Assembly: GCA_964016885.1 (NCBI GenBank)
Contig: OZ024759.1
Coordinates: 4,216,001-4,280,000, forward strand
DNA from: Eledone cirrhosa
Lineage: Eukaryota
DNA: 64,000 nucleotides
Reading direction: 5' to 3'
Positions 1,259 to 64,000 of the stretch are shown piece after piece. The notes under the pieces are model-generated. The model worked only from the letters and a program-made list of their open reading frames with translations. It was not told where the DNA came from and did not search any database. Positions within the stretch are counted from its first letter, which is position 1; every line of letters begins with the position of its first letter. Position numbers and translations under genes: made by a program.

Positions 1259-1396
1259 CTGTCTGACAGTTGCTACCTTCATAACCAGCAGTACACCCTC
1301 CACTGTAACACACACCTGTCTCTGTGTTACATTTGCTGTTGTCTGCACAGTGACAATTTCTACTACAGCTGGGACCAAACTTTCCTACAGGACACA
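1259..1396 (-). CDS. EGF-like exon (CPVGKFGPSCSRNCHCADNSKCNTETGVCYSGGCTAGYEGSNCQT)
   Basis: 138 bp; acceptor ttttctatag, donor gtaagt; MEGF-type Cys spacing. Confidence 0.9.
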
Positions 1397-4388: not shown

Positions 4389-4522
4389 CATGGTGACAGT
4401 CAGGTCCCTGGTAACTGGGTTGACAACCTCCACTGGAACACACACCTGTGATGAAGTTGTGGTGACATCAGCACAGTGGCAGGTTTCTTTACAGTTGAGG
4501 CCGTAGTTACCTTGACGACACT
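4389..4522 (-). pseudogene. Frameshifted EGF-like exon (CRQGNYGLNCKETCHCADVT / NFITGVCSSGGCQPSYQGPDCHH)
   Basis: 134 bp versus 138 bp in sister exons; reading frame changes where a Cys is expected; weak acceptor tatttgag, donor gtatgt. Confidence 0.8.
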
Positions 4523-9018: not shown

Positions 9019-9156
9019 TTGACTGGCAGCTGTGTCCCCTGTGACCAGGTGAGCACCTTCCATGGATGCAGATACCATTGTCAGAGTAACATTTGCCATT
9101 ATTCAGACAGTGGCACTCCTTCACACAGTTGACACCAAACATGCCATGGGCACATC
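9019..9156 (-). CDS. EGF-like exon (CAHGMFGVNCVKECHCLNNGKCYSDNGICIHGRCSPGHRGHSCQS)
   Basis: 138 bp; acceptor ttttctcag, donor gtaagt. Confidence 0.9.
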
Positions 9157-11366: not shown

Positions 11367-11501
11367 CTTTACAAGTGTTATTCACATCAATATATCCATC
11401 TTTACATCCAGTCACACATTTGCCAGTCAATTGATCACATGTCTTTCTGCAGTTGTTGCACTCTTCTTTACAATTTCTTCCATAGAATCCAGGGAGACAT
11501 T
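11367..11501 (-). CDS. EGF-like exon (CLPGFYGRNCKEECNNCRKTCDQLTGKCVTGCKDGYIDVNNTCK)
   Basis: 135 bp; acceptor tctttctag, donor gtgagt. Confidence 0.9.
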
Positions 11502-16125: not shown

Positions 16126-16236
16126 TTACCCTTACTAACCCATGTATCGAATACTCTGTTCAGTAATGGTCTAACTAGTTTTAAACTGGTTCTATCCTGA
16201 TTTATGTTAAAGGTATAAAGGTATCTATATACTTAT

Positions 16237-16425
16237 GAAAGACCTCCACTTCACACATGCTAAGGCTAGGTCCTGACAGCAGAATTATTGTGATTTTGTT
16301 GCCCTTAACAGGACTAGAACATTGCACATCAATAACTTTTGTCTTCTCTAGATTGGAAATCTTCTCACATATTCTGTGTTTTTTGTCTTTTGATACCAAC
16401 ACTATTATTGAGAATTTATTTTGTG
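16237..16425 (-). CDS. F-type lectin (FTP) domain, C-terminal exon (QNKFSIIVLVSK...VQCSSPVKGNKITIILLSGPSLSMCEVEVF), non-canonical AT donor
   Basis: 189 bp; acceptor ttttctgcag; the CEVEV motif ends at C|ataagt, which would join CLPG as EVEVFQCLPG. Confidence 0.8.
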
Positions 16426-17705
16426 CTGCAGAAAAACATGGTAAGAAAGTTAAAACAAAAAACAATTAGCAATGGTATTTGGTGGTGGTGGTAGTGGGGA
16501 TGGTGGTGAGGAGGAGGGAGATTTGGGTAAAGTTTAGTCAAAAACTGATTGGCAAACATGGGCTTGGACGAGTGCAAGATTTAGGGCACATGAAGCCCTG
16601 TGCTAGTTATGTTATGAGGCCTCTTACTCGTAAAAAATTCATCATAAAAAATTGTGCCAAATTTAGAATTAACCCTTTAGCATTTAAACCGGTTGTATTC
16701 GGCCAGAATTTTCTCAACTCTTTCTATTCAAACTGGCTGTAACTGGACACTCATACTTATATTAAGGTATTGTTCTCAAAATAAATAACATCAAAATCTC
16801 ATAGATTCGATATTATGTGAGATAATTATGAGGGCGGTGGTTTGGCAGTATCGGTAGAGGGTCGGACGCCATGCTTTGCCGCATAGAGTTACGGCCCTTT
16901 ATGATTTTAGTTCAATCCCGCCGAGGTTAACTTTGCCTTTCATCCTTATGGGGTTGATAAAATAAAGTACCAGTCACTCACTAGGGTCGATTTAATCGAC
17001 GTTCGCCTACCCCAAAATTGCTGGCCTTGTGCCTATATAAAAAACCATTATGTGAGATATTATGTGAGGTAAAGCTTTTACTGTGTAAATACAATAGTAT
17101 ATATAGAGTAATGTAAATGTTATGTGAGGTATTATGTGAGGTAAAGCCTTTACTGTGACAATACAATAGTATATATAGAGTAATGTAAATGTTATGTGAG
17201 ATATTATGTGAGGTAAAGCCTTTACTGTGACGATACAATAGTATATATAGAGTAATGTAAATGTTATGTGAGGTATTATGTGAGGTAAAGCCTTTACTGT
17301 GACAATACAATAGTATATATAGAGTAATGTAAATGTTATGTGAGATATTATGTGAGGTAAAGCCTTTACTGTGAAAATACAATAGTATATATAGAGTAAT
17401 GTAAATGTTATGTGAGATATTATGTGAGGTAAAGCCTTTACTGTGAACATACAATAGTATATATAGAGTGGTTTCTTTATTTGCCACTAGGGCACAAAAG
17501 GTAGGGACAGATACAAGGGGGGATGTTTACATATAATTAACGAGTACAAAAATATAACAATGAAATAACAACAACAAACGAAGTCCTCAATAGGGAGGGG
17601 GCATTAACATGGGTCGCACACACCCCGGAAAAATGTGCAACCCTTCTCCTCAGGAGCACAAAGAGTAGGTGATTCCCTCGTCTCCTCTTTTTCCTCTTCT
17701 TTCAC

Positions 17706-20700
17706 CTACAGGCTGATATAGAGAGAAGACCCATTCACTCTGGTCATTCTCCCTACTTTCACCCACCTTTCATAAAACTTGCTGGGGTAGAGCACCTCTC
17801 TCTCCATTCTGATCCTTCTTTTAAAATGGTATTTGAAAAAGGGGACCAGTTGTTGGCCGGAGAGATAGGTGTCTGACCTCAGCCCTTTCAGCCTCGTCCA
17901 CCATACAACTTCTTTAGCCATGGCTATCACACAGAGAAAAACCGCCTCTCCTTCGTTTTTGAAAGGGGGAGGCGGTTTGATTGTGACAATGGACTCGGTG
18001 GTCAACCGGATTGGTCCCACCTTCGACAGTAGTCGTTCCACATAGCCCCACAGGTCAGCAATGCCTGGGCAGTGTACGAATGCGTGCGCAACCATTTCGT
18101 CATCATGCACGCATCTCGGACAGATCTTATTCAAAGGATCCCTACCCAAGCTCCCATGCCTGGAGCTTGTCTCGAACGGGTAGAGCCCCTCGGTAGCACT
18201 GCCAAGCCAGGGACTTTTGGATGTTGTCCATCGGTCCAGGGCCAAACGTCCTACCGAACAGACTGGCCAGTTCATCTTCCTCCATGCCTAGAGCTTCTCC
18301 GAGAGCATCGTCGCACCTGCTGCGTACCAACCCTCTATAGAATGTCGAGGTGGAGTCTCCACTGATTGCCGGGTCCGCTTTCCAGAGGGCCGTGAGCGCC
18401 TGGGCACATTCAATGTGCCAGTCGCCCACTTTTCTCGGTCTTTGCTTGACCCATGATTGCAGCTCGGTGAGCGAGACGAGTCTGGGAAAGGCTCGCCTCA
18501 CAAACGGGGCCCACACCGGTTGACCGGTGAGGAATACCTGGAGGTGCCGTAGCCTTAATGCGTGTTTACGCATCTGTAGCCATGGCATCCCCAGCCCTCC
18601 TTTCGAAGGGTGTTGACAGCAGATGGATCTCCTCCCCAAAGGGGTCCGCTTGTTCCAAAGAAATTGGAACAGCGCGCACTCCATTTTGGCGAGTCTTTTC
18701 ACTGGGCAAGGCACGACGGTCAAGCGGTAGTAGATGACGGATGCTATATAAGTATTCGCCACCTCCGCTCGACCTTTCAGGGATAGTTTGCACTGGGCCC
18801 ACACCCTGGCCGTTACCTTGTTCCAGTTTTTCTCCACCTGGAGGTCTGGTCCGAACGAGACCCCAAGCAGCTTCACCGGGCCCTCTGTCCAGCGTCCGAC
18901 GACCTCGTTGGAGGGCATCGGTTTGCCTCTCCATGTTCCGAGTTGCAAACCGACGGACTTGTCCCGGTTCAGCTTGGCTCCTGTAAACCTTTCATATTCC
19001 TCCAGTAAGGTGCCAATTTGCGAGGTTTTCGACACCATTACTGTCACGTCATCGGCGTAGGCCGACGCCGCTTTCTGCAATCCCGGTTCCAAAGTGATGC
19101 CCTGCAACCGCTCCAACTTCCGCAGTAGTGGCTCAAGAGCCAGCACATACAGAAGGGAGGAGAGAGGGCATCCCTGTCCGATGGATCGCATGATTTGGAA
19201 CGGCTCCGAGAGGTGGCCGTTCACCTTGACCCTTGAGCAGACGTTGCTGCTGTGCATCGCAGCAATCCAACCCCTGAAAACGGGTCCGAAGTCTGCCGCC
19301 GTGAGCACCGCATCCAGGTAACGATGGTCAACCCTATCGAAAGCTTTAGATTGATCCAAGTTGATCAGGGCCCCACTAAAGCCGGGTTCATTCCCTACCC
19401 TCTCTATGATGTATCGCATAAGGTGGAGATTGTCGTGAATGGACCTGGACGGGATTGCGCATGTCTGCGCTTCTCCCACCAGGTTTCCGACGACAAGCGC
19501 CAACCTCTTCGCTAACACCTTGGCCAAAATCTTTAACTCTGTATTTAGCAGAGTTATGGGCCTGAAGTTACTTATGTCATCCCCCTTGTTCTCACCCTCC
19601 TCACCAGCGTAACTACGCCCTTGGTCACAGAACTGGGAATTCTCCCGTTCTGCTGCCAGTTGCAGTAGACCGCTTCGAGGATATCAGAGAACAAGTCCGG
19701 CATCGCTACATATAGCTCGTAAGGTAGACCATCGACACCCGGGGATTTGCGTTTGCCGCTTTGGCTCAGCGCCGCCCCTATCTCAGCAGCTGAAATCGGC
19801 CTTTCGCAGGACTTCGCCTCCGCGTCCGAGAGGCGCGGCAGACCGTCGAGGTATGGATTGAAATCCATAGGCTCACCCGGCGCGCCGCCCCTCTCGAACA
19901 GTCATGCAAAGTGCCACTGAAAGGCCGCACACATCTGCCCAGGTTCAAGGATCACACGCCCATCCTGGTCCTTCAAAGACCGAATCGTGGACTTGTTACC
20001 ACTTTTTGCCTCTGTCACTCGGGCCCAGCTAACAGCTTTGGCTCCCTCATTACCCAGAGCACGTATTTTACTCCTGACAACGCAGCCTTCATGCTTCACC
20101 TCAAAGAACTGGTCTAAGGCCATTCTTGATGCCAGCACGCTGGCTACATTGCCACTCCTAATCGCCTCATCTACTCTATCTACTAATTCCCTTTCCGTCT
20201 TGTTCCTATCCCTTGCTAATTCCTGACTAAAACCTATCGATTCTATTCTAATTGCTCTCTTAAGAGAGATCCACCACCTGTTGTTGACAATTGCCCCTGT
20301 CAAACTCTGCTTAACTAACGTGCTAATCCATTTACTGTAAGCTTTGCTTGTCGGTAAGGACAAGTTCAGCTTCCAGTAACCGGGTCCCTGTCTATGGGTT
20401 CTATCAAGGTTGGCTATGCAGGTCACTAACTTGTGATCCGAATAGTCAACCATGAACATTTTTGGACAGCTAAATGTGTCCCTATCCTTCTCTCTAACTA
20501 GGATCCTATCTAGGTACGACCTAGAGCCGCTGCGATTGGTCCACGTCCATAGTGGTACAGTCGGAAAATCTAGTCGATATCTATCGGCCAGGTCAAATCG
20601 GCCAATTAACCGTTTGAGGCTTTTACACCCCTCTGTATTGGCACATGCCCCTACATAGTCCCAACGTGCATCCAGGATACCATTCCAGTCCCCCACTAAA

Positions 20701-21110
20701 AGCAAGGAGCTGGACGTTCCCAGAAAAGTTTCCAGATGTTGGAAGTATTCCGGCCGTGCTGCCCAAAAAGGGGCGTACGCAGCAATTAGTCTAAGGGCTC
20801 CACTTTCACTACTGCCGACTTCTAAAACCACCAGTCGACCCTCCGGGTCCAGGTGCACCTTCTGTATGGTGAGGCTCAGGTATTTTCGCAGCAGAACGAC
20901 AACTCCACCCCCACCCCCCGGTTGACAGAGAGATGCGAAGATCTCAAAGTCGTCGAAGAGGGGCGCCAGTTGGCGCTCGCTGCTGATCCTGGACTCGCAA
21001 ATAGCCATTACATCCATTCTATGCGACCTGAGATCGTTTAAAAGTTTGCCTTGTTTCCAAGACAGTCCCAGGCCGCGTACATTCAGACACCCAACTCTTA
21101 TATCAGCCAT
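17706..21110 (-). pseudogene. Tx1 ORF2: APE endonuclease + reverse transcriptase + C-terminal CxxC..H..C motif, disrupted
   Basis: LNVRGL, GDWNG, SYLDR, YSDH, GPGYWKLN, KSPGVDGLPYE, DQSKAFDRV, GQGCPLS, AYADD, GGLGMP, CPRC..E..HAFVHC; breaks at ~19902, ~19590 and ~18170. Confidence 0.9.
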
Positions 21111-21115
21111 GTTGG

Positions 21116-22879
21116 TTAAAAGAGGAAGGACCTACCTGTTCGGCTCCTGAGGAGCAGGTTGCACAATATCCATGGGCGTATTGGAGGGATTGTTTGGTGG
21201 GGTGTTGTTTTGTGGTGGGGTGGGGTGGGGGTGTTTGGTGAGGTGTGGGTGGGGAAACGTTTCAAGAGGACGCGGTTATAGGGTCGAGTACATGTTTTCC
21301 CCACGTCCTCAGGAAAGTTCTCTCTTAGTTTTGCATAGGTGTCCATTGGGAGTCTTATCATTTTTAAATGCGGTTTGTTGGCCGCGCTTGCAAAGAATTG
21401 CCCTTCAGTTTCCACCGAAGGGTCTTTGTGTATTGTTTTTACTAGTTCTCTGTTATTTGTGTTAATGTATGTATACTGTTTTATTTGTGTTGTGTTTGTT
21501 TGTTGTTCTTGTGTGTGCTTGCGTTTTGTTGTATGTGTTATGTTTTGGGGCGGGGCGGATTTTGTTTGTTCTGTTTGTTTTGTTTTTGTTGGTGGTTGTG
21601 TGTTTCTTTCATTTATGTTCGAGTGGTGCTTTCTTTTTTTCCTTTTTACAGGTTGGAAGGGTCCCCCCCTCTTCGTCACTAGGTGCTATTTCAGCTGGGT
21701 CCTCGTCCGTGCTGTCGGGTAGTGGTGTATTTTGGGGTTTTGTTGTGTTTGTGTGTGTTTTTGGAGTTGTTTTGGGTGGGGCCGTGTCTTGTGTTATTTT
21801 TCCGTGTTGTTTTTTGTTGTTGTTGTGGTGGTGGTAGTGGTGGTGGTGGCGGTGGTAGTGTGTGGGGTGTAGGCAAAAGAGCCTTTTTTTTGTCAATTGA
21901 GGGCAGGCAGCCCTTAGATGACCCCTGCTTGAACAGTAGTAACATATGGGCCTCCTACCCTGGGCTGAAATGTATATAAATGTTTCTCCATCGAGGGACA
22001 CCCTCTGTGGTATTCTAGCTATTCGTTCTGGTCTCATTTGGACCAGAACCTCCACGCTCAAACCGCAGAAAACGTCTGTGGTGACTTCTCCTACTGAAAG
22101 GATTCCGTCCTCGTCTTCTAAAAATCCTGTTAGTACCCAGGAAATGCATTAATTTGGCCGGATTCCGGAGACTCTTATTTTCTGCGTTCTTTTCCCCAAA
22201 TATGTGGGGAGAAATGTGTGTAGCTTGGAAACAATTGGCGACACAGAGTATTTCCTGGCCGTCAATTGATCCTTCATTAGCACCGTTATATTCCCATAGA
22301 GTGGCCCTTTTTGTATGAACGATATATCACTCCACACACTTTTTAGGACCAGCTCAATTTCTTTTGGGATAATTGAGCTGGTTTCCTTGTTATGTTGGAA
22401 ATTGTTCTGAAAGATATCGTTCTTAGTGTCGTGTCTCTTTTGATTTCTTGTGGGGAGGTGATTGTGAAGTCTCCTCCTTCTTTGAAAGTTACATACTGTT
22501 TTGCTTCCTTCATCTTTTCTCTCAGAGTTGTAATGTCCAGTTGCTTGCAGGTCTGTGTTTTCCGGACCGCCTGTGCAAAGGAGGCACCAGTAGTGGGTTT
22601 GCTTTGTTTGGTGTTATCGTTATTTTTTCCTTGGTTGGTGTTGTGACTATTGCTGTTGTTGATCATGCTGTTATTGTCATTGTTGTTTTTGTCTGCGTTT
22701 ATGTGACTTTCTGGGTTTTCACCCATTTTTACAAATTTTTCTTTTAATTCCGTGTTCCATGTTTCTTTATCAGAAGTGAGGAGGGAAGACTTAGAGCCTT
22801 GTGCTTCTAGCTTCTCTGTATCACCTTTCTTAGGGGGCGTGGCTTTCTTGTTAGGATGAGATGTGAAAATTCCGTCCAT
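21116..22879 (-). pseudogene. Tx1 ORF1 (gag-like, single zinc knuckle), frameshifted
   Basis: CYYCSSRGHLRAAC knuckle, SFAQAV motif, low-complexity linkers; split across ORFs 22343-22972, 22149-22337, 21609-22061 and 21116-21679. Confidence 0.75.
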
Positions 22880-25829: not shown

Positions 25830-26087
25830 TATCAATATAGTTATAATATATCCTTAGTTGGGAAATATCGTATGTTTGTCTGAGTTCAAGAGTCCACAAT
25901 GATGTTGGAGAGCTCATTGTATGAGAACAAGATCTGTGTTGTGGGTTTTGATCGAAGTTACCATCTACAGCCAGGTTAGCTGACATTGAGTACATTTCAT
26001 TGCGACAAACATTGTTTTTCATTAGAATTACACTGCTTGTTTTGTCTGTCGTGGTTTGTGTAGCTACTTTACCAATAGCTATATTTC
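25830..26087 (-). CDS. F-type lectin (FTP) domain, N-terminal exon (NIAIGKVATQTTT...ANLAVDGNFDQNPQHRSCSHT...WTLELRQTYDISQLRIYYNYID)
   Basis: 258 bp open; acceptor tctttttcag, donor gtaagt; NxAxGKxA, AVDG, CSHT and WxxxL hallmarks. Confidence 0.9.
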
Positions 26088-26718: not shown

Positions 26719-26862
26719 TATAGGTTTTTACTTGGCAATCCGGTCCGGTCCATCCTTCTTCACAGCCATATGGGCAAGCCCCAGTTTGTTGATGGCAGTC
26801 AGCATCGTTTAAACAATGGCATTGCTTGTTACAAGTATATCCATACCATTGAGATGCACAAC
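26719..26862 (-). CDS. EGF-like exon (CASQWYGYTCNKQCHCLNDADCHQQTGACPYGCEEGWTGPDCQVKTY)
   Basis: 144 bp; acceptor aacatag, donor gtaagt; absent from the ORF track, translated by hand. Confidence 0.9.
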
Positions 26863-27920: not shown

Positions 27921-27980
27921 TAACAGTCACAGTTTGTAGAGATTAACAACTAAAGTTTGAATGAATAAAGATCAACAGAC

Positions 27981-28130
27981 CTGATAATGATAATGTTTCG
28001 ATACAGGTACCCTCTCCTTTTATAGAAATAGACCAAGCGTTTACATCCCCTGAACAGCTCAAAGGTCTGGTTGTACATATTGATTTACAAAAGGGTTCCT
28101 TAGATTTGTCAAAAAATACCAAAACTGTCT
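27981..28130 (-). CDS. Cys-containing exon upstream of the first EGF (TVLVFFDKSKEPFCKSICTTRPLSCSGDVNAWSISIKGEGTCIETLSLSG)
   Basis: 150 bp open, phase 1-1; acceptor ctcatttcag, donor gtctgt; joins in frame to CASQWYG. Confidence 0.75.
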
Positions 28131-32557: not shown

Positions 32558-32959
32558 TATAACGGCGGCGAAGATTGGAAACCGAATCTGAGCTTTCCCA
32601 CCTCTGGGACAAGCCGTGGTAAGTTGTTTACGCTCAAGAGACTAACCCCTGGGGGATGTTAAACACAGGTCAGAGGTGTTTAAGCCTGACAGAAAATAGG
32701 TCAGAGGATATATCCATCTTTCTGAGTTGTTTACGCTTGGCAAAATAATCCCTTGGGAGACTCTAACCAAAGTTCAGAGGATATATCTATCCTTCTAACT
32801 TCAACTCTTATAAATACAGGGGTTGTTTACGCCCCGACAGAAAAGAAGTGATATACAGACAACACAAGTGGCCTTTACAAGCTCTCGTCACGAAATACCA
32901 GTCCGTCACTAATTTCCACTCCTGCCTGGCTGATCGATACAACCACATATTCCGTTACA
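32558..32959 (+). repeat. 5' LTR
   Basis: TaTAACGG...CCGTTACA inverted termini; TATAAATA box at ~32809; homologous to 36151-36792. Confidence 0.75.
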
Positions 32960-43704: not shown

Positions 43705-44370
43705 TGAAAATGTAAAATTTCCACTGTTAAATCTATCCCTGCATTTTAAGTATTCTCTATTATCTCATACTGTTACTTTCTTATAAGTCCTATAAGAATG
43801 CAATTTTTGCTAAACTGCCATAGAGCAGACCTCTGAAGTGATAGAAGGATATAATTTATAGAGCATGCTGGAATACCACTGCTTACATTGGAGAGAATTT
43901 CTCTGGACAGAATGTTGATATCTACAGTTTACCAATATAGAAATATAACATTTCCACTGTTAAATCTATCTCTGCTTCTAAAGTATTCTCTATTATCTCA
44001 TACTGTTTCTTTCTTATTTCAGAATATCAGATGACATTGGGATAAATTATTATTTTCAATCTTGGATACATCATCTCTATTTATCATCATTTGAAGACTA
44101 AAACCTTCTAAACAGAACTTATATAACACTGTTTATATAAATCTATAGTTCAATTACTGTGAAATATTTCCTCAAAACTGAGTTTATTTTCTTCACTATA
44201 AGATGGTTTTGTATTTTAACTAAACTTGGATGAAACAGAAGTTTGTATTATCTTCAGATATTAACTGAAATCACAGTTGAGGGAAATATAGAAGAATATT
44301 TTATAAGAAATATAATATAAAAAATATTACAAGAAAAACATCTGTATATTCTGTTGAAGAAGAAATCATT

Positions 44371-45090
44371 ATGCCAAATAAATTGACAAAGAAGATTAAA
44401 TGTGAAACACAATCTAAAGTGTTTAGTATTGCTGGTGAGATGACAAAGGTTAGAGAAAAGAAGCCATATCACTGTGATATCTGTGATAAATCATTCTCTC
44501 AAAGTGGTACCTTAACTACTCACAAACGTATACATACAGGAGACAAGCCATATCACTGTGATATCTGTGGTATATCATTCTCTGGGAAAAGTAGCCTAAC
44601 TACTCACAAATGTATACATGCAGAAGAGAAATCATAATGCATTGACATCAGTGATAAATCCTTCTCTCAAATTTGTGAATTAATGAGAATACAAATACAT
44701 ATCATTGTAACATCTTAGGGAAATCCTTCTCTTTGAATGTTACATTAACTACACACACACATATACATACAGCTGGGAAGCCATATCACTTTGATATATT
44801 TGGTACATCATTCTCTAAATGTTGTGGCTTCACTAGACACCAACATCTACAGGAGAGGAACCATATCACTGTGATGTCTGTGATAAATCCTTCTCTAAAT
44901 GTTGTGGTTTCACTAGACACCAACATATACATACAGGAGAGGAACCATATCACTGTGATGTCTGTGATAAATCCTTCTCTAAATGTTGTGGTTTAATTAG
45001 ACACTAACATATACAGGAGAGGAACTATATCACTGTGATGTCTGTGGTACATCTTTCTCTTATAAAGATTACTTAATGCAACACAATTAG
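44371..45090 (+). pseudogene. Decayed tandem C2H2 zinc-finger gene (two intact fingers, then a stop and about six damaged or frameshifted fingers)
   Basis: [41 protein letters not shown]..., TAA at 44635-44637; likely acceptor tttcttatttcag at ~44022. Confidence 0.85.
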
Positions 45091-49758: not shown

Positions 49759-52700
49759 TATCATCATCATCATCATCATCATCATCATTTTACGTCCGCT
49801 TTTCCCTGCTTGCAAGGGTGGGACGGGTCTTATTCAGCACAGCATCTCTCCACTCGTCACGGTCCCTCGTCATCTCCACCGTGAGCTTCAATGATCTGAG
49901 GTCTGTTCTCACCACCTCCGCCCATGTTTTTCGTGGTCTACCTCTACTACGTCTTCCTTCAACTGGCATTTCCTGGCACTTCTTCACCCATCGGTCATCC
50001 TCCATGCGCATCACATGTCCATACCACCTCAGTCTCCTCTCCCGTACACTACATTCTATCCTTCTCAGACACAGTTTCTCTCTCAACACATTTATGCTGG
50101 GTCGTTCACGCACATTTACACTGCACATCCAACGGAGCATGCTTGCCTCATTTCTCTCCAGCCGTCGCATATCTTCTGCGGTAGCTGCCCATGTCTCACT
50201 ACCATGCAGCATCGCGCTCCTCACACAGGCATCATACAACCGGCCTTTCGTATGCAGGGAGAAACCCTTCTTCGTCAACAGAGGAAGCAGCTCCCTAAAC
50301 TTCTTCCAACCCGTCCTTATTCTAGATACTATGGCCTCGGAACACCCTCCTCCCATGCTAATCTGATCTCCTAGGTACCGGAAGCTATCCACCACTTCTA
50401 TAGCGCCCTCTCGCATTTGAAAAATGTGTCTATCAGTGCGACTTCTACTGTCTAATTTCCCTGTACATCTACTGCATACATATTTCTCCCTACCTGTTAG
50501 TTTGCCTGCTATCCCGCTACATCTCTTGTGTACCCAGGACCTACATTGTGTGCATTTTATAGAATTTATGCCAGTTCCTTTTCTGCATATCGAACATGGC
50601 CATTTCCCTGACGGAATCAGGGTTTTGTCCTCTTTTCTACTCATCAACACTTTTGTCTTAGCTAGATTTACTCTCAGTCCTCTTGCTTCCAACTGCTGTT
50701 TCCATAGCCGGAATTTATTCTCTAGCTCCTCTACTGATTCTGCCATAAGAGCCAGATCGTCAGCATAGAGAAGTTCCCATGGACAGCCAGTCTTAAACTC
50801 CTCTGTTATGGCTTGGAGGACTATAATGAACAAGAGCGGGCTGAGGACCGAACCCTGATGTACTCCTACTTGTATCTGGAATTCCTCACTAAACTCCATT
50901 CCTACCCTGACTTTACTGAGAGTACCTCTGTACAAAGTTTGCACTGTCCTTACAAGCCATTCCTCAACACCCAGCTTCCTTAGGGACCACCAGATGACAG
51001 ATCGGGGTACCCTATCAAAGGCCTTCTCTAGGTCAACAAAGGCCAAGTATAGTGGCTTATTCTTCTCTAAGAACCTCTCTTGCATTTGTCTCACCAAGAA
51101 GAGGGCATCTGTTGTACTCTTCCCAGGCACAAAACCAAACTGCATCTCATCTAGTTTGACCCTTTCTCTAATTAGTTGTGCTAAAATCCTTTCTGCCACT
51201 TTCATAACCTGATCTATCAGTTTTATACCCCTATAATTGCTCCTCTCCAAAGCATCCCCTTTACCTTTGTAGCAATTTATGAGAATACTGCTGCACCAGT
51301 CTTTGGGTATGACACCACCATATATAGCCTGATTGATTATGCGTGCAACCAGTTTAGTGCCTACGTCCCCTGATGCCTTCAGCATCTCAGCAACTATTCC
51401 CGATGGTCCGGCCGCCTTACCATTTTTCATTTCCCTAATCGCCTCTTGGACCCTATATTCGTCAATCTCAATAGCTGGTCCCTCTGTCGGATCTACCAAG
51501 GGTAATTTCTCTCTCTCCCATTCGTTCTCCACATTCATCAGTCTCTCATAATGGCATTTCCAGGCCTCCTTTTTCTGGTCATTCGTGACACTAAGTACAC
51601 CGGCATCATCCCGGACACATTTATCACCAACAACATCCTGATTTGCATTGACACACTGCCTTGCAATGTGGAACACCGCACGCCTCTGATCTTCCCGTCG
51701 CAGAACATTGGCAAACCTCCTACTCTCTGCCTCCCTGCGTGCTAAGTACACCTGACGTCTAGCTTCTCTCTTAGTGGCTGTATATTCTTCCCTACTCCCA
51801 CCCTTATTCCAAGCCTTCCATGCTAGTCTTTTGTCTCTAATAGCCTTATCTACACTGCTGTTCCACCACCAGGTCACTCTCTGTCTGGTTGGGGCTCTGC
51901 TCCAGCCACAAGTTTCATCAGTAGCCTTCAGCAAGTTGTCACGTAAGAACTTCCAGTTATTATCTATGTCATACGTCTCTAAATCGTCTTCTTTTTCGTC
52001 ATATACATCTTGAAGGGCTTTCCTAAATTTGAATTTTAGTGAAAGGTCTTTTAGCTTCCAGACCTTTCTTCTCCACACCTTCCTATATGGCTCATTCCAT
52101 CTCTTGCTTACTGAGATATCACTAACAACTAACCTATGCTGTGGGGTACATTCTTCCCCAGGGTATGCCTTGGTATTAGACACTATCTGCCTGTCCCGCT
52201 GCCTAACTAGCAGGAAGTCAATCTGGCTTATGTGCTCACCAGATTTGTAGGTTATTAGGTGATTGGCAGGTTTCTGGAAGTTTGTGTTGCAAATAGTCAA
52301 TGTACTTGCATCACAAAATTCAAGAAGTCTCACTCCTTCTTCATTTCTTGAACCGTAACCATGCCCACCATGTACCCCAGTGTAACCATTCTGGAGCTGT
52401 CCAACATGACCATTGAAGTCTCCTGCTAGCATAACGATGTCTCCGTCCTCTGTCATTGTGGTTGTTTGCAAAAGTTGCTCATAAAAGCAGTCTTTCTCAT
52501 CTTTGCCTAGGCCTGCTTGGGGAGCATAGACCGAGATGATTGTCAGTAGTCTCCTACCTACAACTAATCTAAGCTTAATTATTCGATTACTAACTCGAAC
52601 TACCTCTATTGTCTTATTGATCCATTTCTCAGCCAGGAAAATGCCTACTCCCCCTAACCCATCATCCTTACCTACCCAGAATAGCTTATAGCTAAGACGC

Positions 52701-53053
52701 TTGCCTACGACTAGTCTCGCAGAGGCACCTCTCCATCTCACCTCTTGCACGCAGCACACATCCACCTGCCTTCTCTCCAGCATCTCCGCTATTTCAGCAG
52801 ATCTACCTCTGAGAGTGCCAACATTAAGTGTTGCAACTCTGAGATGCGACGTCTTCATATTTTTTTCTATGCTGTTTTGTTGCTGTGCTGATAAGCTTTT
52901 TGGCATTGATACACTGGTTGGATGCCCTTCCTAACACCAGCGCCACTTTACAGCATGGACTGGGTGCTTTTATTTGTGCCACCAGCACTAGAGAGGATGT
53001 CTTACTAGACTCAAGGGCCCTCTCTACCCCTCCATTTTACAGCATGGTCATTT
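49759..53053 (-). mobile_element. Full-length RTE-clade LINE
   Basis: Short 5'UTR, single intact ORF, (GAT)n tail; no TSD recognised. Confidence 0.92.
49790..52906 (-). CDS. RTE ORF: APE endonuclease + reverse transcriptase with inserted PHD finger, 1038 aa, uninterrupted
   Basis: LNVGTL, VQEVRW, YAPQ, GDFNGH, SQIDF, PQH; DLEKAFD, GVHQGSVLSP, LYADD, FRYLG; C4HC3 motif at 50465-50596. Confidence 0.95.
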   Translation of the reverse strand: MPKSLSAQQQNSIEKNMKTSHLRVATLNVGTLRGRSAEIAEMLERRQVDVCCVQEVRWRGASARLVVGKRLSYKLFWVGKDDGLGGVGIFLAEKWINKTIEVVRVSNRIIKLRLVVGRRLLTIISVYAPQAGLGKDEKDCFYEQLLQTTTMTEDGDIVMLAGDFNGHVGQLQNGYTGVHGGHGYGSRNEEGVRLLEFCDASTLTICNTNFQKPANHLITYKSGEHISQIDFLLVRQRDRQIVSNTKAYPGEECTPQHRLVVSDISVSKRWNEPYRKVWRRKVWKLKDLSLKFKFRKALQDVYDEKEDDLETYDIDNNWKFLRDNLLKATDETCGWSRAPTRQRVTWWWNSSVDKAIRDKRLAWKAWNKGGSREEYTATKREARRQVYLARREAESRRFANVLRREDQRRAVFHIARQCVNANQDVVGDKCVRDDAGVLSVTNDQKKEAWKCHYERLMNVENEWEREKLPLVDPTEGPAIEIDEYRVQEAIREMKNGKAAGPSGIVAEMLKASGDVGTKLVARIINQAIYGGVIPKDWCSSILINCYKGKGDALERSNYRGIKLIDQVMKVAERILAQLIRERVKLDEMQFGFVPGKSTTDALFLVRQMQERFLEKNKPLYLAFVDLEKAFDRVPRSVIWWSLRKLGVEEWLVRTVQTLYRGTLSKVRVGMEFSEEFQIQVGVHQGSVLSPLLFIIVLQAITEEFKTGCPWELLYADDLALMAESVEELENKFRLWKQQLEARGLRVNLAKTKVLMSRKEDKTLIPSGKWPCSICRKGTGINSIKCTQCRSWVHKRCSGIAGKLTGREKYVCSRCTGKLDSRSRTDRHIFQMREGAIEVVDSFRYLGDQISMGGGCSEAIVSRIRTGWKKFRELLPLLTKKGFSLHTKGRLYDACVRSAMLHGSETWAATAEDMRRLERNEASMLRWMCSVNVRERPSINVLREKLCLRRIECSVRERRLRWYGHVMRMEDDRWVKKCQEMPVEGRRSRGRPRKTWAEVVRTDLRSLKLTVEMTRDRDEWRDAVLNKTRPTLASREKRT

Positions 53054-60481: not shown

Positions 60482-61048
60482 CGAGCTGACGTACCCAGCT
60501 TCGCCCGGGTAAACAGATGATAAAAGAAAAGGTCCCTATTTACTCCCTTCACAACTCTGTATGTTAGACTGACAGACAGGCACACAGACAGATAAACTGC
60601 GTGGCGATTGTGGAACGCCGCACGTATACACACATACACGCACACAAACTTACACACACACCCGTGCACTTACACACACGCACACACTCACACATGTTGA
60701 TAGTTTTTACTTTCTGTGGAACGCTGCACGCACGCACACATACATAAACATACGCGCACGTACATACACACGCACACATGTTAATAGTTATTGCTTTCCT
60801 TCCCCTCTTATTTCCACACACATCACACACACACACACACACACGTCTCTACACTGACACATATACATAGTGTATCCAACACAGCGTTCACTTTGCCTCT
60901 CTCTCGCCTCTCTCTCTCATTGGCATTATACATATTAATTTAAGTTTGGCGTCGTTGAGGTGGGCGGAGTCGTTAGAAACCTATGAACCAATGATAATCG
61001 AGAATTATGACACACGGAATATTGACATTGTTGAAATTAATATATAGA
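60482..61048 (-). mobile_element. Short non-autonomous Helitron
   Basis: Starts TCTATATATTAATT; internal (GT)n; ends ACCCGGGCGAAGCTGGGTACGTCAGCTCG|T, nearly identical to the end of the adjacent large Helitron. Confidence 0.75.
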
Positions 61049-64000
61049 CTAGCTGACGTACCCAGCTTCGCCAGGGTAAACAGATGATAAGAGAAGACAG
61101 GTAAAAGAGAAAATGTCTGTATTGGATGTTTGTCTGGTTACAGTGTGAAGCGAGTCCGTGTTGTCTGTGTGATACAAAAAAACTGTAAAAGAAATCTTCC
61201 AGATATACCAGATTCTTCGTTGTCCGGTTTGTGCATAGTATATGAACAATTCTAGGTGCTCCTACCTAGAATAGTGACCTCTAGGAGATGGTTCCTCTTC
61301 GGCCTGACTGGAAAACGTGTATCATTGCATAGACGTGGTTGTTCCACGTTTCTCAAAAGGATGATGGAAGTTCCAATCTGTTATATTATATGTAGATATA
61401 GATATAGATAATTAATAAAAAAGATGTCCGTCAATGTAAAGAAGGTCCCTATTTACTTGAAATGGTTTATACAAATGCCAAATTAATATGGATATGGATA
61501 ACCTGCTTATCTATAAGTGGTCAGCTATAATAATAAACCAACAAATTATATGACACAAAAATTTATTCAGTAATTTCCAGGCTCTTAGCCACTGAGTAAT
61601 AGACAGTCAATATTGCCCAGATTTCAACTCGGGGAGGTGGCCTGGTTTGAACTCAAAATGGCGGATCCTTCTACTTCGAAAATAGAATGGTTTTTCAATA
61701 TTACTCTAGCCCTGGCCGGCCATAGGCACCAAACTTTTTGCCAGACTCAGCATATGATGAGGTTTTATTACCACTGCAATCAGAAGCGATAAATTTGAAG
61801 GCAATTTCTACCAATACTTGTTGGTTTTTATTGCTCATTATCGACAATAAATGACATTGAACATAAATGATAACTCTGCCAAAGCTCACAATACAGATGA
61901 AAGGAAACCAATGTCCGAATCATATACGTCGCTTATTGATAGCATTAAAGATATGCATACATCAGCTCAAAGCTTCATTATAGACAATATTTAGGTTTGT
62001 TCCTCTGTTAGTGGTATCAATTGCAAATTTTATACCATCAGGATCGCACACTCGAGATGCAGCAACATAGAGTTGCCCATGGCTGGATCATTCAAGCAGA
62101 TACCGACTCGCTTGAAAGTCTGTCCCTGTGCCTTGTTGACAGTCATGGAGAAGGCCAAATTGACGGGAAACTGTCTCCTTTGCCAAATAAATGGCAGCAG
62201 ATCTTCACTTGGTCTCAGCATGATCCTCGGAATGAGAACCGATGCCTCTCTGCCTGGGAGTTTAGCTTCTAAAACTCTTCCGTTAATCAATCTCTCAACA
62301 ATCAATCTGGTACCATTGCAAAGACCCATTTTATGATTGATATTTCTAAGCAATATAATCGGCAAACCCTTTTTCAACCTCAAAATATGTGGGGGAAATC
62401 CGGGTATTTGAAGTGAATTCAGATACTCAGTCGGAACATCCATACTGTTCTGCTGATTAGGCTCCATTGCAGGAAACATTCCGGCTACTTGTGAATTTAT
62501 TTCATCGACCGTTGCATTCGTATGAGTTAGAATAACACGTTCCGATATTCAGGAGATATTCTGCCAAAAAGCATTCAAATTAGGGAACACCCAGTCAATC
62601 AATCAAGCCTTGGCGGTCCAGTGGCATGACCAAATGGTCTGGGATTTATACAGTCTGATTATCACCAGCGTGTGGCAATTCATCGTTTCCCAACTGCATC
62701 AACCATCGGCCGTATGTCTCAGCCTCTTCGTTTTGCCCGAACATAGGAAGTCGCATATTATCGTGTAATCGCAAAACTCTGAAATGGCGCCACAACGGGG
62801 ACTTTTTCAGACATGCATTGACAATTTGTGCTCTTTGAGCATTCCTAACAATTGGTAGCACCTGTCTGAAATCGCCACCAACAACGATAGTCTTACCACT
62901 GAATGGCAGGTCACTACCGCAGATATCTCTCAAAGTTCTGTCCAATGCCTCCAGCAAATATCTGTGTGCCATTGGAGCCTTGTCCCAAATAATCAGAGAC
63001 GTATTGCGTATAAGGCCCGCGAGTTCACTTTGTCCTGTAATATTACAGAAACTCAACTCATCTGGAGCCAATGGAGCCTTGAAGCATGAGTGGAAGGTCC
63101 TTCCACCACTCAGCAAAGTGGCAGCGATGCCCCTGGTGGGCACAGGGAGAGCAATCTTCCTCTGAGCTCTGACTGCCGATAACATAGTGTTGAAACAGAA
63201 TGTCTTTCCGGTGCCTCCTGGAACATCTATGAAAGCACAAAGTTGCTCATTAGTGGAAATCGAGTGGAGAGCGCCATCAACCAATTCTCTGTGAGATTAG
63301 GTCAACATTGGCATACGTTCATCCACAATACGTTGCTTTTCCAGTGGATCAAACTGGAATAGTTCCCTCCGATCGAGTGGCAACCGTCTAAGCTGCAATC
63401 TCATGTTCAATGCTAAGACACGTTGCCGCATTTCTTCATCAGGAATTGGTAAATTGAAATCTGTTAAACATTTCAAATGAACTTCGAGCAGTTGCTCAAT
63501 ATTGAGCAAAACAATAGCTTTCAGCAAATTTTCATCATAGACCTGAAGATGGTGCCTAAAATCATCAGCCATAATTCCCCAATGGCGTTCGAATAACTCT
63601 CTTGGATCGGCAGGATTGCAGAATCCTAGAATCGTGACAAACAACTGCCTTATTCGAGCTGGCATCTGTGTTGTTCCTGCAGCTTCCATGGCGTTATACC
63701 ATTCAGCGTCATCCTGAAGGAGTCCCAGATGCTGACACACAGCCTGGTATCTTTTATATTCCACGCCATTGATTGTTTTCAAATCAGCGAAGCTCTGTTT
63801 ACCTCTCGAAAAATCACTATGCAACAGAACTCGGAGATAAAACACATCACCAGATGCTGGATGGACATTACAAACCCGTCCAATAGTCATGAATCTCAAC
63901 TTTTGTTTTCTATCATTCCATTTCTTTCCCTTCTTATCCCACGTATAGTGCGAAGGGAAATCGCAGTAGAGTTGCTTTTGATCCGGGTTCAAAGCATGTT
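61049..64000 (-). mobile_element. 3' part of a RepHel-encoding Helitron (decayed), extends past the window end
   Basis: Hairpin CCCTGGCGAAGCTGGG followed by CTAG terminus at 61049-61052; helicase ORF pieces upstream. Confidence 0.9.
61970..63992 (-). pseudogene. Helitron RepHel PIF1-like helicase region, disrupted
   Basis: FYLRVLL, GLLQDDAEW, PGGTGKT, IIWDK (DE mutated), GDFRQVLP, CNGTRL, RRQFP..AFSMTVNKAQGQT; stop at 63297 and frameshifts. Confidence 0.9.

What the first reader, a model, noticed from the sequence alone, without database searches (positions are those of the whole stretch)
16231..16425. Lectin exon ends in ATAAGT: a splice donor that A-to-I editing could switch on
Seen: the second half of the F-type lectin domain is open and has a good acceptor. 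It ends exactly where phase-1 splicing would give EVEVFQ-CLPG, but the donor reads C|ATAAGT, a GTAAGT consensus apart from +1. Established: inosine is read as G by the spliceosome, and coleoid cephalopods edit RNA extensively. Inference: either a G>A loss-of-function change (or assembly error), or editing-dependent inclusion controlling whether the lectin domain is completed. Skipping this 189-bp exon preserves the frame.
Basis: partly seen in the sequence, partly recalled or inferred. Interest (0 to 1): 0.75.

Follow-up and report, generated by a model that had tools for sequence, protein, structure and literature searches.

The report
Dead splice donor in duplicated fragments
The odd AT splice signal is real DNA shared by 11 of 24 near-identical copies of this lectin exon, while the other 13, including the intact source gene, have the normal GT; it is most likely an ordinary mutation in broken, end-less gene duplicates rather than an RNA-editing switch.

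Summary
Observation confirmed, interpretation not supported. The 189-nt exon (16425-16237, minus strand) is open and ends in C|ATAAGT. The genome holds 24 copies at 97-100% identity: 11 read AT, 13 read GT in DNA. One GT copy (contig C22) is the full source gene: 55 of 55 EGF/lectin exons found are intact, and it alone has the membrane-anchor exon. The window's copy is a ~76-kb internal fragment of it, in a 1.8-Mb tandem array of ~100-130-kb units. It lacks an N-terminal exon and the anchor exon and has three frameshifted exons, one with a broken acceptor too. The site is a CpG; both decay products occur (C|AT 11 copies, T|GT 2), and CpG transitions run about 5-fold above background here. No duplex for ADAR is predicted, and exon changes look neutral (pN/pS 0.7-1.2, low power). 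Editing is not strictly excluded: no RNA from AT copies was seen, and in one AT unit the donor is the only lesion among 17 exons. Editing-made AT>GT donors are already known in humans. Ordinary decay in a large segmental-duplication array.

The parts
16237..16425 (-). Second half-exon of the F-type-lectin-like domain (189 nt, phase 1-1, open)
16231..16236 (-). Donor ATAAGT; +1 G>A at a CpG (C at 16237); GTAAGT in 13 of 24 copies
16227..16232 (-). Best nearby cryptic donor (4 nt downstream, out of frame; gives a stop 13 codons later if joined to 11501)
   Evidence: score from a matrix of 23 distinct parent donors; rough
16438..16438 (-). Linked marker: ancestral base in all 11 AT copies and in C22; in the 12 other GT copies it creates a new CAG acceptor 12 nt upstream
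16388..16388 (-). Linked exonic marker (K in AT copies and C22; N in the 12 other GT copies)
25830..26087 (-). First half-exon of the lectin-like domain (258 nt), canonical sites
26719..26862 (-). EGF-like exon before the lectin domain (144 nt)
27979..28062 (-). Probable further upstream exon (weak match to an Octopus homologue, E 0.007)
11367..11501 (-). EGF exon following the lectin exon (135 nt)
9019..9156 (-). EGF exon (138 nt); two source-gene EGF exons before it are deleted in this copy (about 2 kb)
4389..4522 (-). Broken EGF exon: acceptor CAG>GAG and 4-bp deletion (13 of 13 array copies that hold it; intact on C22)
1259..1396 (-). EGF exon (138 nt); two exons further on, outside the window (C20:4213452), is a 1-bp deletion with normal splice sites
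18142..21131 (-). LINE (endonuclease and RT frames) inside the intron between the two lectin exons, absent from the source gene
32930..32940 (.). Approximate upstream end of similarity to the source gene (C22:1669018), inside an LTR-like sequence
60482..64000 (-). 3' part of a stop-riddled Helitron (CTAG end at 61049) plus a 0.56-kb mini-Helitron (61048-60482); passengers in the units examined

Best explanation
The A is a genomic variant carried by 11 of 24 duplicated copies of the exon, most likely a CpG-decay G>A mutation that killed the donor in a non-functional internal fragment of a lectin-EGF receptor gene and was then multiplied by segmental duplication. Shown: one copy (C22) is a complete run of intact exons with GT here; the others examined are pieces of its middle, repeated head to tail in ~100-130-kb units, with their own deletions, frameshifts, stops and broken splice sites. 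Inferred: the G is ancestral; with no selection on the fragments, lesions accumulate and spread by unequal exchange and conversion. If an AT copy is transcribed, the exon would likely be skipped in frame or spliced 4 nt downstream out of frame.
For: 24 copies, 11 AT and 13 GT. Source gene on C22: 55 of 55 exon-like hits without lesion; its membrane-anchor exon has one full-length match in the genome (40 of 134 candidates scored); an N-terminal exon at C22:1663975-1664133 lies outside the duplicated segment and has no match in C20:4232000-4290000. Window unit: 4 of 27 exons damaged (AT donor; GAG acceptor with 4-bp deletion; two 1-bp deletions), so rescuing the donor would still meet a frameshift. 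GT copies decay too: 3 of 20, 4 of 28, 2 of 11, 2 of 6 exons. CpG: parent CpG bases show transitions at 63 of 826 versus 158 of 10577 for other C/G, 5.1-fold; the same CpG shows C>T in 2 copies; gene-body CpG methylation is reported in octopus (PMC9476566, passages). pN/pS against the source gene 0.70-1.16 in 6 of 7 units (the seventh had no synonymous change); changes that vary among copies are 37 non-synonymous to 5 synonymous, p = 0.25 against neutrality. No duplex: z -1.14, site unpaired in the best fold, pairing probability 0.05-0.5 in 4 window sizes, best antisense match 9 nt, 18.3 bits, within 25 controls of 16.4-24.3. Run X4 contigs over this exon carry GT-class markers and G.
Against: In the one group-2 AT unit read in full (C20:4.37-4.47 Mb) the AT donor is the only lesion among 17 exons; 4 of the 11 AT copies are of this group and the other 3 were not read in full. 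All exons are phase 1-1, so exons with broken splice sites can be skipped in frame. The neutrality test has low power, and this receptor family may evolve fast anyway. Contigs of run X4 stop at splice sites, which suggests some array copies are transcribed and spliced (inference, the run is not on record as RNA). The polarity G>A rests on the intact copy and on G in a contig of organism B (run X6), not on an annotated orthologue. Copy number could be inflated by assembly of a tandem array. The signal-peptide exon itself was not located.
Confidence: 0.9

Rival explanations
1. A-to-I editing of the +1 A restores the donor in transcripts of AT copies and controls whether the lectin domain is completed.
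For: The mechanism exists: three human AT-AG introns show A>G in poly(A)-minus RNA (PMC4176328, passages and Table 2). The host is probably a coleoid, with extensive editing including a splice-junction class (PMC9068888, passages). The other five donor bases are consensus. One AT unit has no other lesion in 17 exons.
Against: No duplex predicted; the 3' neighbour is U, a poor ADAR context (recalled, not from a call). 13 copies encode G in DNA, so no switch is needed to make the domain. The copies lack both ends of the gene, and the window's copy frameshifts downstream. No contig with AT-class markers was among those listed for X4 at this exon (contigs drop variants).
Confidence: 0.03
2. The array copies are functional: transcribed, truncated lectin-EGF fragments (decoys or regulatory RNAs), and the AT and GT haplotypes are maintained as lectin-minus and lectin-plus forms fixed in DNA.
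For: Two clean haplotype classes of 11 and 12 copies; both exonic alleles occur in RAD reads of three further samples (T at L187:321 in 13 of 32, 27 of 49 and 14 of 21 reads; only 4-6 start places each); X4 suggests splicing of GT-class copies through the new acceptor.
Against: No start or signal exon found inside the segment; lesions in all 5 other lectin-bearing units read, 4 of them GT class; no sign of purifying selection.
Confidence: 0.05
3. The AT donor is used unedited at low level as a non-canonical U2-type AT-AG site.
For: Unedited AT-AG sites are reported in humans, one (ACTR10) recently derived from GT (PMC4176328, passages).
Against: Very rare: none among 79 non-canonical Drosophila introns (PMC4528330, Table 3 passage). 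A GT lies 4 nt downstream and scores higher (4.0 versus 1.0).
Confidence: 0.015
4. The A is a sequencing or assembly error.
For: Contigs of runs X1, X4 and X6 show only G at 16236.
Against: 11 copies on 3 contigs, in two flank groups, perfectly linked to two other markers. Those contigs collapse variants and G is the majority letter. The exonic haplotype linked to A in this genome appears in RAD reads of three samples (the A itself was not read).
Confidence: 0.005

Closest known systems
Duplicated (unprocessed) pseudogene fragments in tandem segmental duplications (general knowledge)
   Same: Introns kept, 94-100% identity to an intact source gene, missing ends, splice-site, frameshift and stop lesions, near-neutral change.
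   Different: Scale: 24 copies of this exon and at least 33 of the segment's last exon on six contigs, with a 1.8-Mb array; some copies appear to be spliced.
Editing-created donors: C14orf37, NUP210, CRYZL1 AT-AG>GT-AG (PMC4176328, passages); Alu-based NARF and GPR107 cases (PMC10648226, passages)
   Same: Genomic AT followed by an otherwise consensus donor.
   Different: Those rest on A>G in RNA; here no RNA evidence, no predicted duplex, and paralogues encode G in DNA.
Molluscan MEGF / galactose-binding-domain single-pass receptors and receptor PTPs (Biomphalaria SudRes1, PMC12297450, passages; Octopus 'draper' XP_029644740.2 and RPTP-T-like CAI9733301.1)
   Same: The source gene has EGF, an F-type-lectin-like domain split in two exons, about 50 EGF exons and a membrane anchor; paralogue-rich clusters are typical.
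   Different: No phosphatase exons were found in 131 kb after the anchor; the copies studied here are fragments without the anchor.
Helitron gene-fragment capture (general knowledge; search listing only)
   Same: The units examined hold a Helitron with TC start and hairpin-CTAG end, in the same direction as the gene fragment.
   Different: Its ends lie inside the unit with identical flanks, its RepHel has shared stops, and the array ends are not at its termini: a passenger.

Membership tests
Editing-created 5' splice site (AT>IT) | Genomic AT with otherwise U2 consensus donor | tested here: met
Editing-created 5' splice site (AT>IT) | Site lies in a double-stranded RNA structure | tested here: not met
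   z -1.14; pairing probability 0.05-0.5; antisense matches at chance level over a 92-kb unit; predictions only
Editing-created 5' splice site (AT>IT) | A>G in unspliced RNA of the same allele | not testable with these tools
   only collapsed contigs; the G seen in X4 is on GT-class markers
Editing-created 5' splice site (AT>IT) | Junction reads from the A allele | tested here: inconclusive
   joint tables were cut to 15 rows of repeat noise
Editing-created 5' splice site (AT>IT) | Host gene otherwise able to make the product | tested here: not met
   window unit has 3 frameshifted exons and lacks both ends; one other AT unit has no further exon lesion but shows no anchor exon either
Duplicated pseudogene fragment | Intact source gene elsewhere | tested here: met
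   C22:1.66-1.79 Mb, 55 of 55 exon-like hits intact; the catalogue was built from intact exons, partial ones were not counted
Duplicated pseudogene fragment | Disabling lesions or missing ends | tested here: met
Duplicated pseudogene fragment | Neutral sequence change | tested here: inconclusive
   pN/pS 0.70-1.16; 37 N to 5 S, p 0.25; few changes
Duplicated pseudogene fragment | No functional product | not testable with these tools
   X4 hints at splicing of GT-class copies
U12-type AT-AC intron | ATATCCT donor and AC acceptor (consensus recalled) | tested here: not met
   donor ATAAGTA, acceptor TAG
Giant Helitron with captured gene | Unit or array ends at Helitron TC / CTAG termini | tested here: not met
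   similarity ends at about C20:5304093 and 3474582; no terminus motif in 100 kb at either end
Giant Helitron with captured gene | Intact RepHel in the unit | tested here: not met
   in-frame stops shared by 3 of 3 units read
MEGF / galactose-binding-domain receptor PTP (source gene) | Lectin-like domain, EGF array, single membrane anchor | tested here: met
MEGF / galactose-binding-domain receptor PTP (source gene) | Intracellular phosphatase domains | tested here: inconclusive
   no hit up to C22:1920000; could lie further on or be absent

The most novel reading that the evidence does not exclude
In the four group-2 AT copies, where (in the one read in full) the AT donor is the only lesion, ADAR editing restores the donor, so an octopod keeps both hard-wired (GT) and editing-gated (AT) versions of a lectin-bearing receptor fragment in one array: the first editing-gated splice donor in a cephalopod that these searches could find.
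Probability: 0.03. Interest if true: 0.65.

Novelty: new member of a known kind. Interest (0 to 1): 0.15.

Why it matters
As found, it matters little: a dead splice site in duplicated fragments. Two useful points remain. It is a trap for editing screens: 13 paralogues at 97-99% identity carry G in DNA, so mapped RNA or DNA reads will show a convincing false A>G at 16236. And the surrounding array (at least 33 units on six contigs, two exon haplotypes, some copies apparently spliced) is a young, large duplication of a recognition-receptor fragment that may be worth its own look. If the editing reading were true, it would give a natural side-by-side test of an encoded versus an edited donor.

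Tried and rejected
No RNA holder listed; this says nothing on expression. RAD runs X10-X12 cover the exon, but no row for the donor (L187:473) was among the 40 shown of 250, so A at +1 in other samples was neither seen nor excluded. 'Only G in X1, X4, X6' was not taken as absence of A, because contigs collapse variants and X1 may be the source of the assembly. Giant-Helitron / rolling-circle reading: raised (a Helitron hit beside most copies, CTAG|TC junction), rejected. U12 AT-AC intron: rejected by sequence. Word-index protein searches with two exons found nothing; the zinc-finger search was uninformative on taxon; the Atlas gave no hit; Pfam did not recognise the 62-aa exon. Signal-peptide scans gave no candidate inside the segment and no convincing one outside. 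The first exon catalogue picked premature donors and was redone. The tree does not make the AT copies one clade (groups of 7 and 4 by flanks); a shared derived base at 16521 favours one origin plus exchange, but two hits at a CpG are not excluded. For pN/pS, source exons between C22:1713000 and 1725500 and two others were left out for unclear orthology. Paper searches (listings only) showed no cephalopod editing-created donor; (F-type lectin, EGF, cephalopod, expansion) listed 0 papers; two searches listed nothing on this array. No supplements were read. Earlier-finding look-ups near the place and by sequence were empty.

Full report
Observation. On the minus strand the exon runs 16425-16237 (189 nt, phase 1-1, open) after a good CAG acceptor and is followed by ATAAGT. 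The upstream half-exon matches solved F-type lectins and Pfam PF22633 below its cut-off. Of 8 relatives looked up, 5 are named Octopus proteins, so a coleoid host is likely.

The exon is multi-copy. Three searches of the window's own genome each gave the same 24 places: 14 on C20, 5 on C27, 3 on C16, 1 each on C22 and C23. Eleven read C|AT, eleven C|GT and two T|GT. All 11 AT copies share the ancestral acceptor and one exonic haplotype; all 12 GT copies other than C22 share a new CAG 12 nt upstream and a K>N change. The AT copies fall in two flank groups of 7 and 4. A random base error cannot give this pattern.

The source gene. The C22 copy lies in a run of 55 EGF and lectin exon hits with no lesion, followed by a membrane-anchor exon at C22:1788775 that has one full-length match in the genome. 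An N-terminal exon at C22:1663975 matches Octopus homologues and has no counterpart upstream of the window's copy. The window's copy matches only C22:1669018 to about 1745300 at 92-99%. It is thus an internal fragment without either end. It repeats head to tail on C20, with spacings of 102-132 kb (three gaps of 167-223 kb) over 1.78 Mb. The segment's last exon has 33 copies at 98-99% on six contigs besides C22 (40 of 150 candidates scored).

Decay. In the window's unit 4 of 27 exons are damaged: this donor, an exon with a GAG acceptor and a 4-bp deletion (window 4522-4389), and two 1-bp deletions. The 4-bp deletion and GAG are in 13 of 13 array copies that hold that exon, 7 AT and 6 GT. GT units are damaged too: 3 of 20, 4 of 28, 2 of 11 and 2 of 6 exons. 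Against this, the one group-2 AT unit read in full has the donor as its only lesion in 17 exons. pN/pS against C22 is 0.70-1.16 in six units and undefined in a seventh; changes varying among copies are 37 non-synonymous to 5 synonymous, not different from neutral (p 0.25, low power).

Mechanism of the change. The last exon base and +1 form a CpG. Both deamination products are present (C|AT 11, T|GT 2). Over 30,079 aligned sites in 18 blocks, CpG bases of the source gene show transitions at 63 of 826 against 158 of 10,577 other C/G (5.1-fold; 3.4-fold read the other way). CpG methylation is concentrated in octopus gene bodies (PMC9476566, passages). That deamination caused this change is inference.

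Editing. The mechanism is known: inosine can create donors (PMC9105294 and PMC10648226, passages), and three human AT-AG introns show it (PMC4176328, passages). Here the fold around the site is no better than shuffles (z -1.14; 15 of 100 shuffles as good), the A is mostly unpaired in four window sizes, and the best antisense match in the 92-kb unit is 9 nt, like 25 controls. Even full editing would not give the window's copy a product, since a frameshifted exon with normal splice sites follows. Without editing the likely outcomes are in-frame skipping or a GT 4 nt downstream, which is out of frame.

Reads. Contigs of X1, X4 and X6 show G at 16236, but they collapse variants. In X4 one contig starts exactly at the new upstream acceptor, with 30 unaligned bases beyond it, and another starts exactly at the next exon's acceptor, where all 24 genomic copies continue identically for 24 bases. 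I read this as spliced RNA of GT-class copies; the run is not on record as RNA and the joints were not displayed. RAD reads of three samples carry both alleles at 16388 and almost only the array allele at 16378 (24 of 24, 44 of 45, 20 of 20 reads; few start places), so the array and the AT-linked haplotype probably exist in other animals; the donor base itself was not shown.

The array's engine. A Helitron hit lies upstream of most copies. Comparison with stand-alone copies set its ends (5.85 kb, A|TC to hairpin-CTAG) and showed a 0.56-kb mini-element behind it. Its flanks are the same in all units read, its RepHel has shared stops, and neither end of the C20 array is at a terminus. It is a passenger; unequal exchange or a similar route is the likelier engine (inference, not tested).

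Verdict. The base is real, the editing switch is very unlikely (about 0.03), and the finding is an ordinary splice-site loss in a large array of end-less receptor-gene fragments (0.9). Interest 0.15.

Noticed in passing
G000:C20:3.47-5.30 Mb; also C27:13.06-15.48 Mb, C16:0.45-0.80 Mb, C19:35.4-39.9 Mb, C18, C26, C23: A family of at least 33 young (about 92-99% identical) segmental-duplication units built from a C22 receptor-gene fragment, an RTE-like LINE, a dead Helitron pair, an LTR element, satellites and a zinc-finger fragment. What drives it is unexplained.
   Followed up: partly
window 16438 (paralogous position): All 12 GT array copies have gained an in-frame CAG acceptor 12 nt upstream of this exon, and a contig of run X4 starts exactly there.
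   Followed up: partly
G000:C22:1663975-1788850: Intact giant single-pass receptor gene with one lectin-like domain and about 50 EGF exons of 138 nt, including a block of near-identical exons at 1713794-1724983; no phosphatase tail found up to 1920000.
   Followed up: partly
window 60482-61048: The mini-Helitron's 3' end reads CTCG|G or CTCG|T in C20 and C19 units but CTAG|T in C18 and C26 units: a lost terminator.
   Followed up: partly
window 11373 (L187:3021): An X4 contig leaves this EGF exon 6 nt before the expected donor, at an in-frame GT, which may be an alternative donor.
   Followed up: no
G000:C20:4189500-4201400 and 4184800-4186300: Satellites of about 54 and 38 bp that resemble the ends of EGF exons, expanded over 12 kb and 1.5 kb in this unit.
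   Followed up: no
window 49793-52930: RTE-type LINE with an unbroken 1046-aa frame; a similar 1040-aa frame at C22:1754288-1757407. Possibly recent insertions.
   Followed up: no
window 44281-45060: Degenerate C2H2 zinc-finger repeats carried in the unit.
   Followed up: partly
window 25830-25860 and 16425-16405: By eye, the lectin domain keeps the His but lacks the first Arg of the F-type fucose-binding motif (motif recalled), so it may not bind fucose.
   Followed up: no
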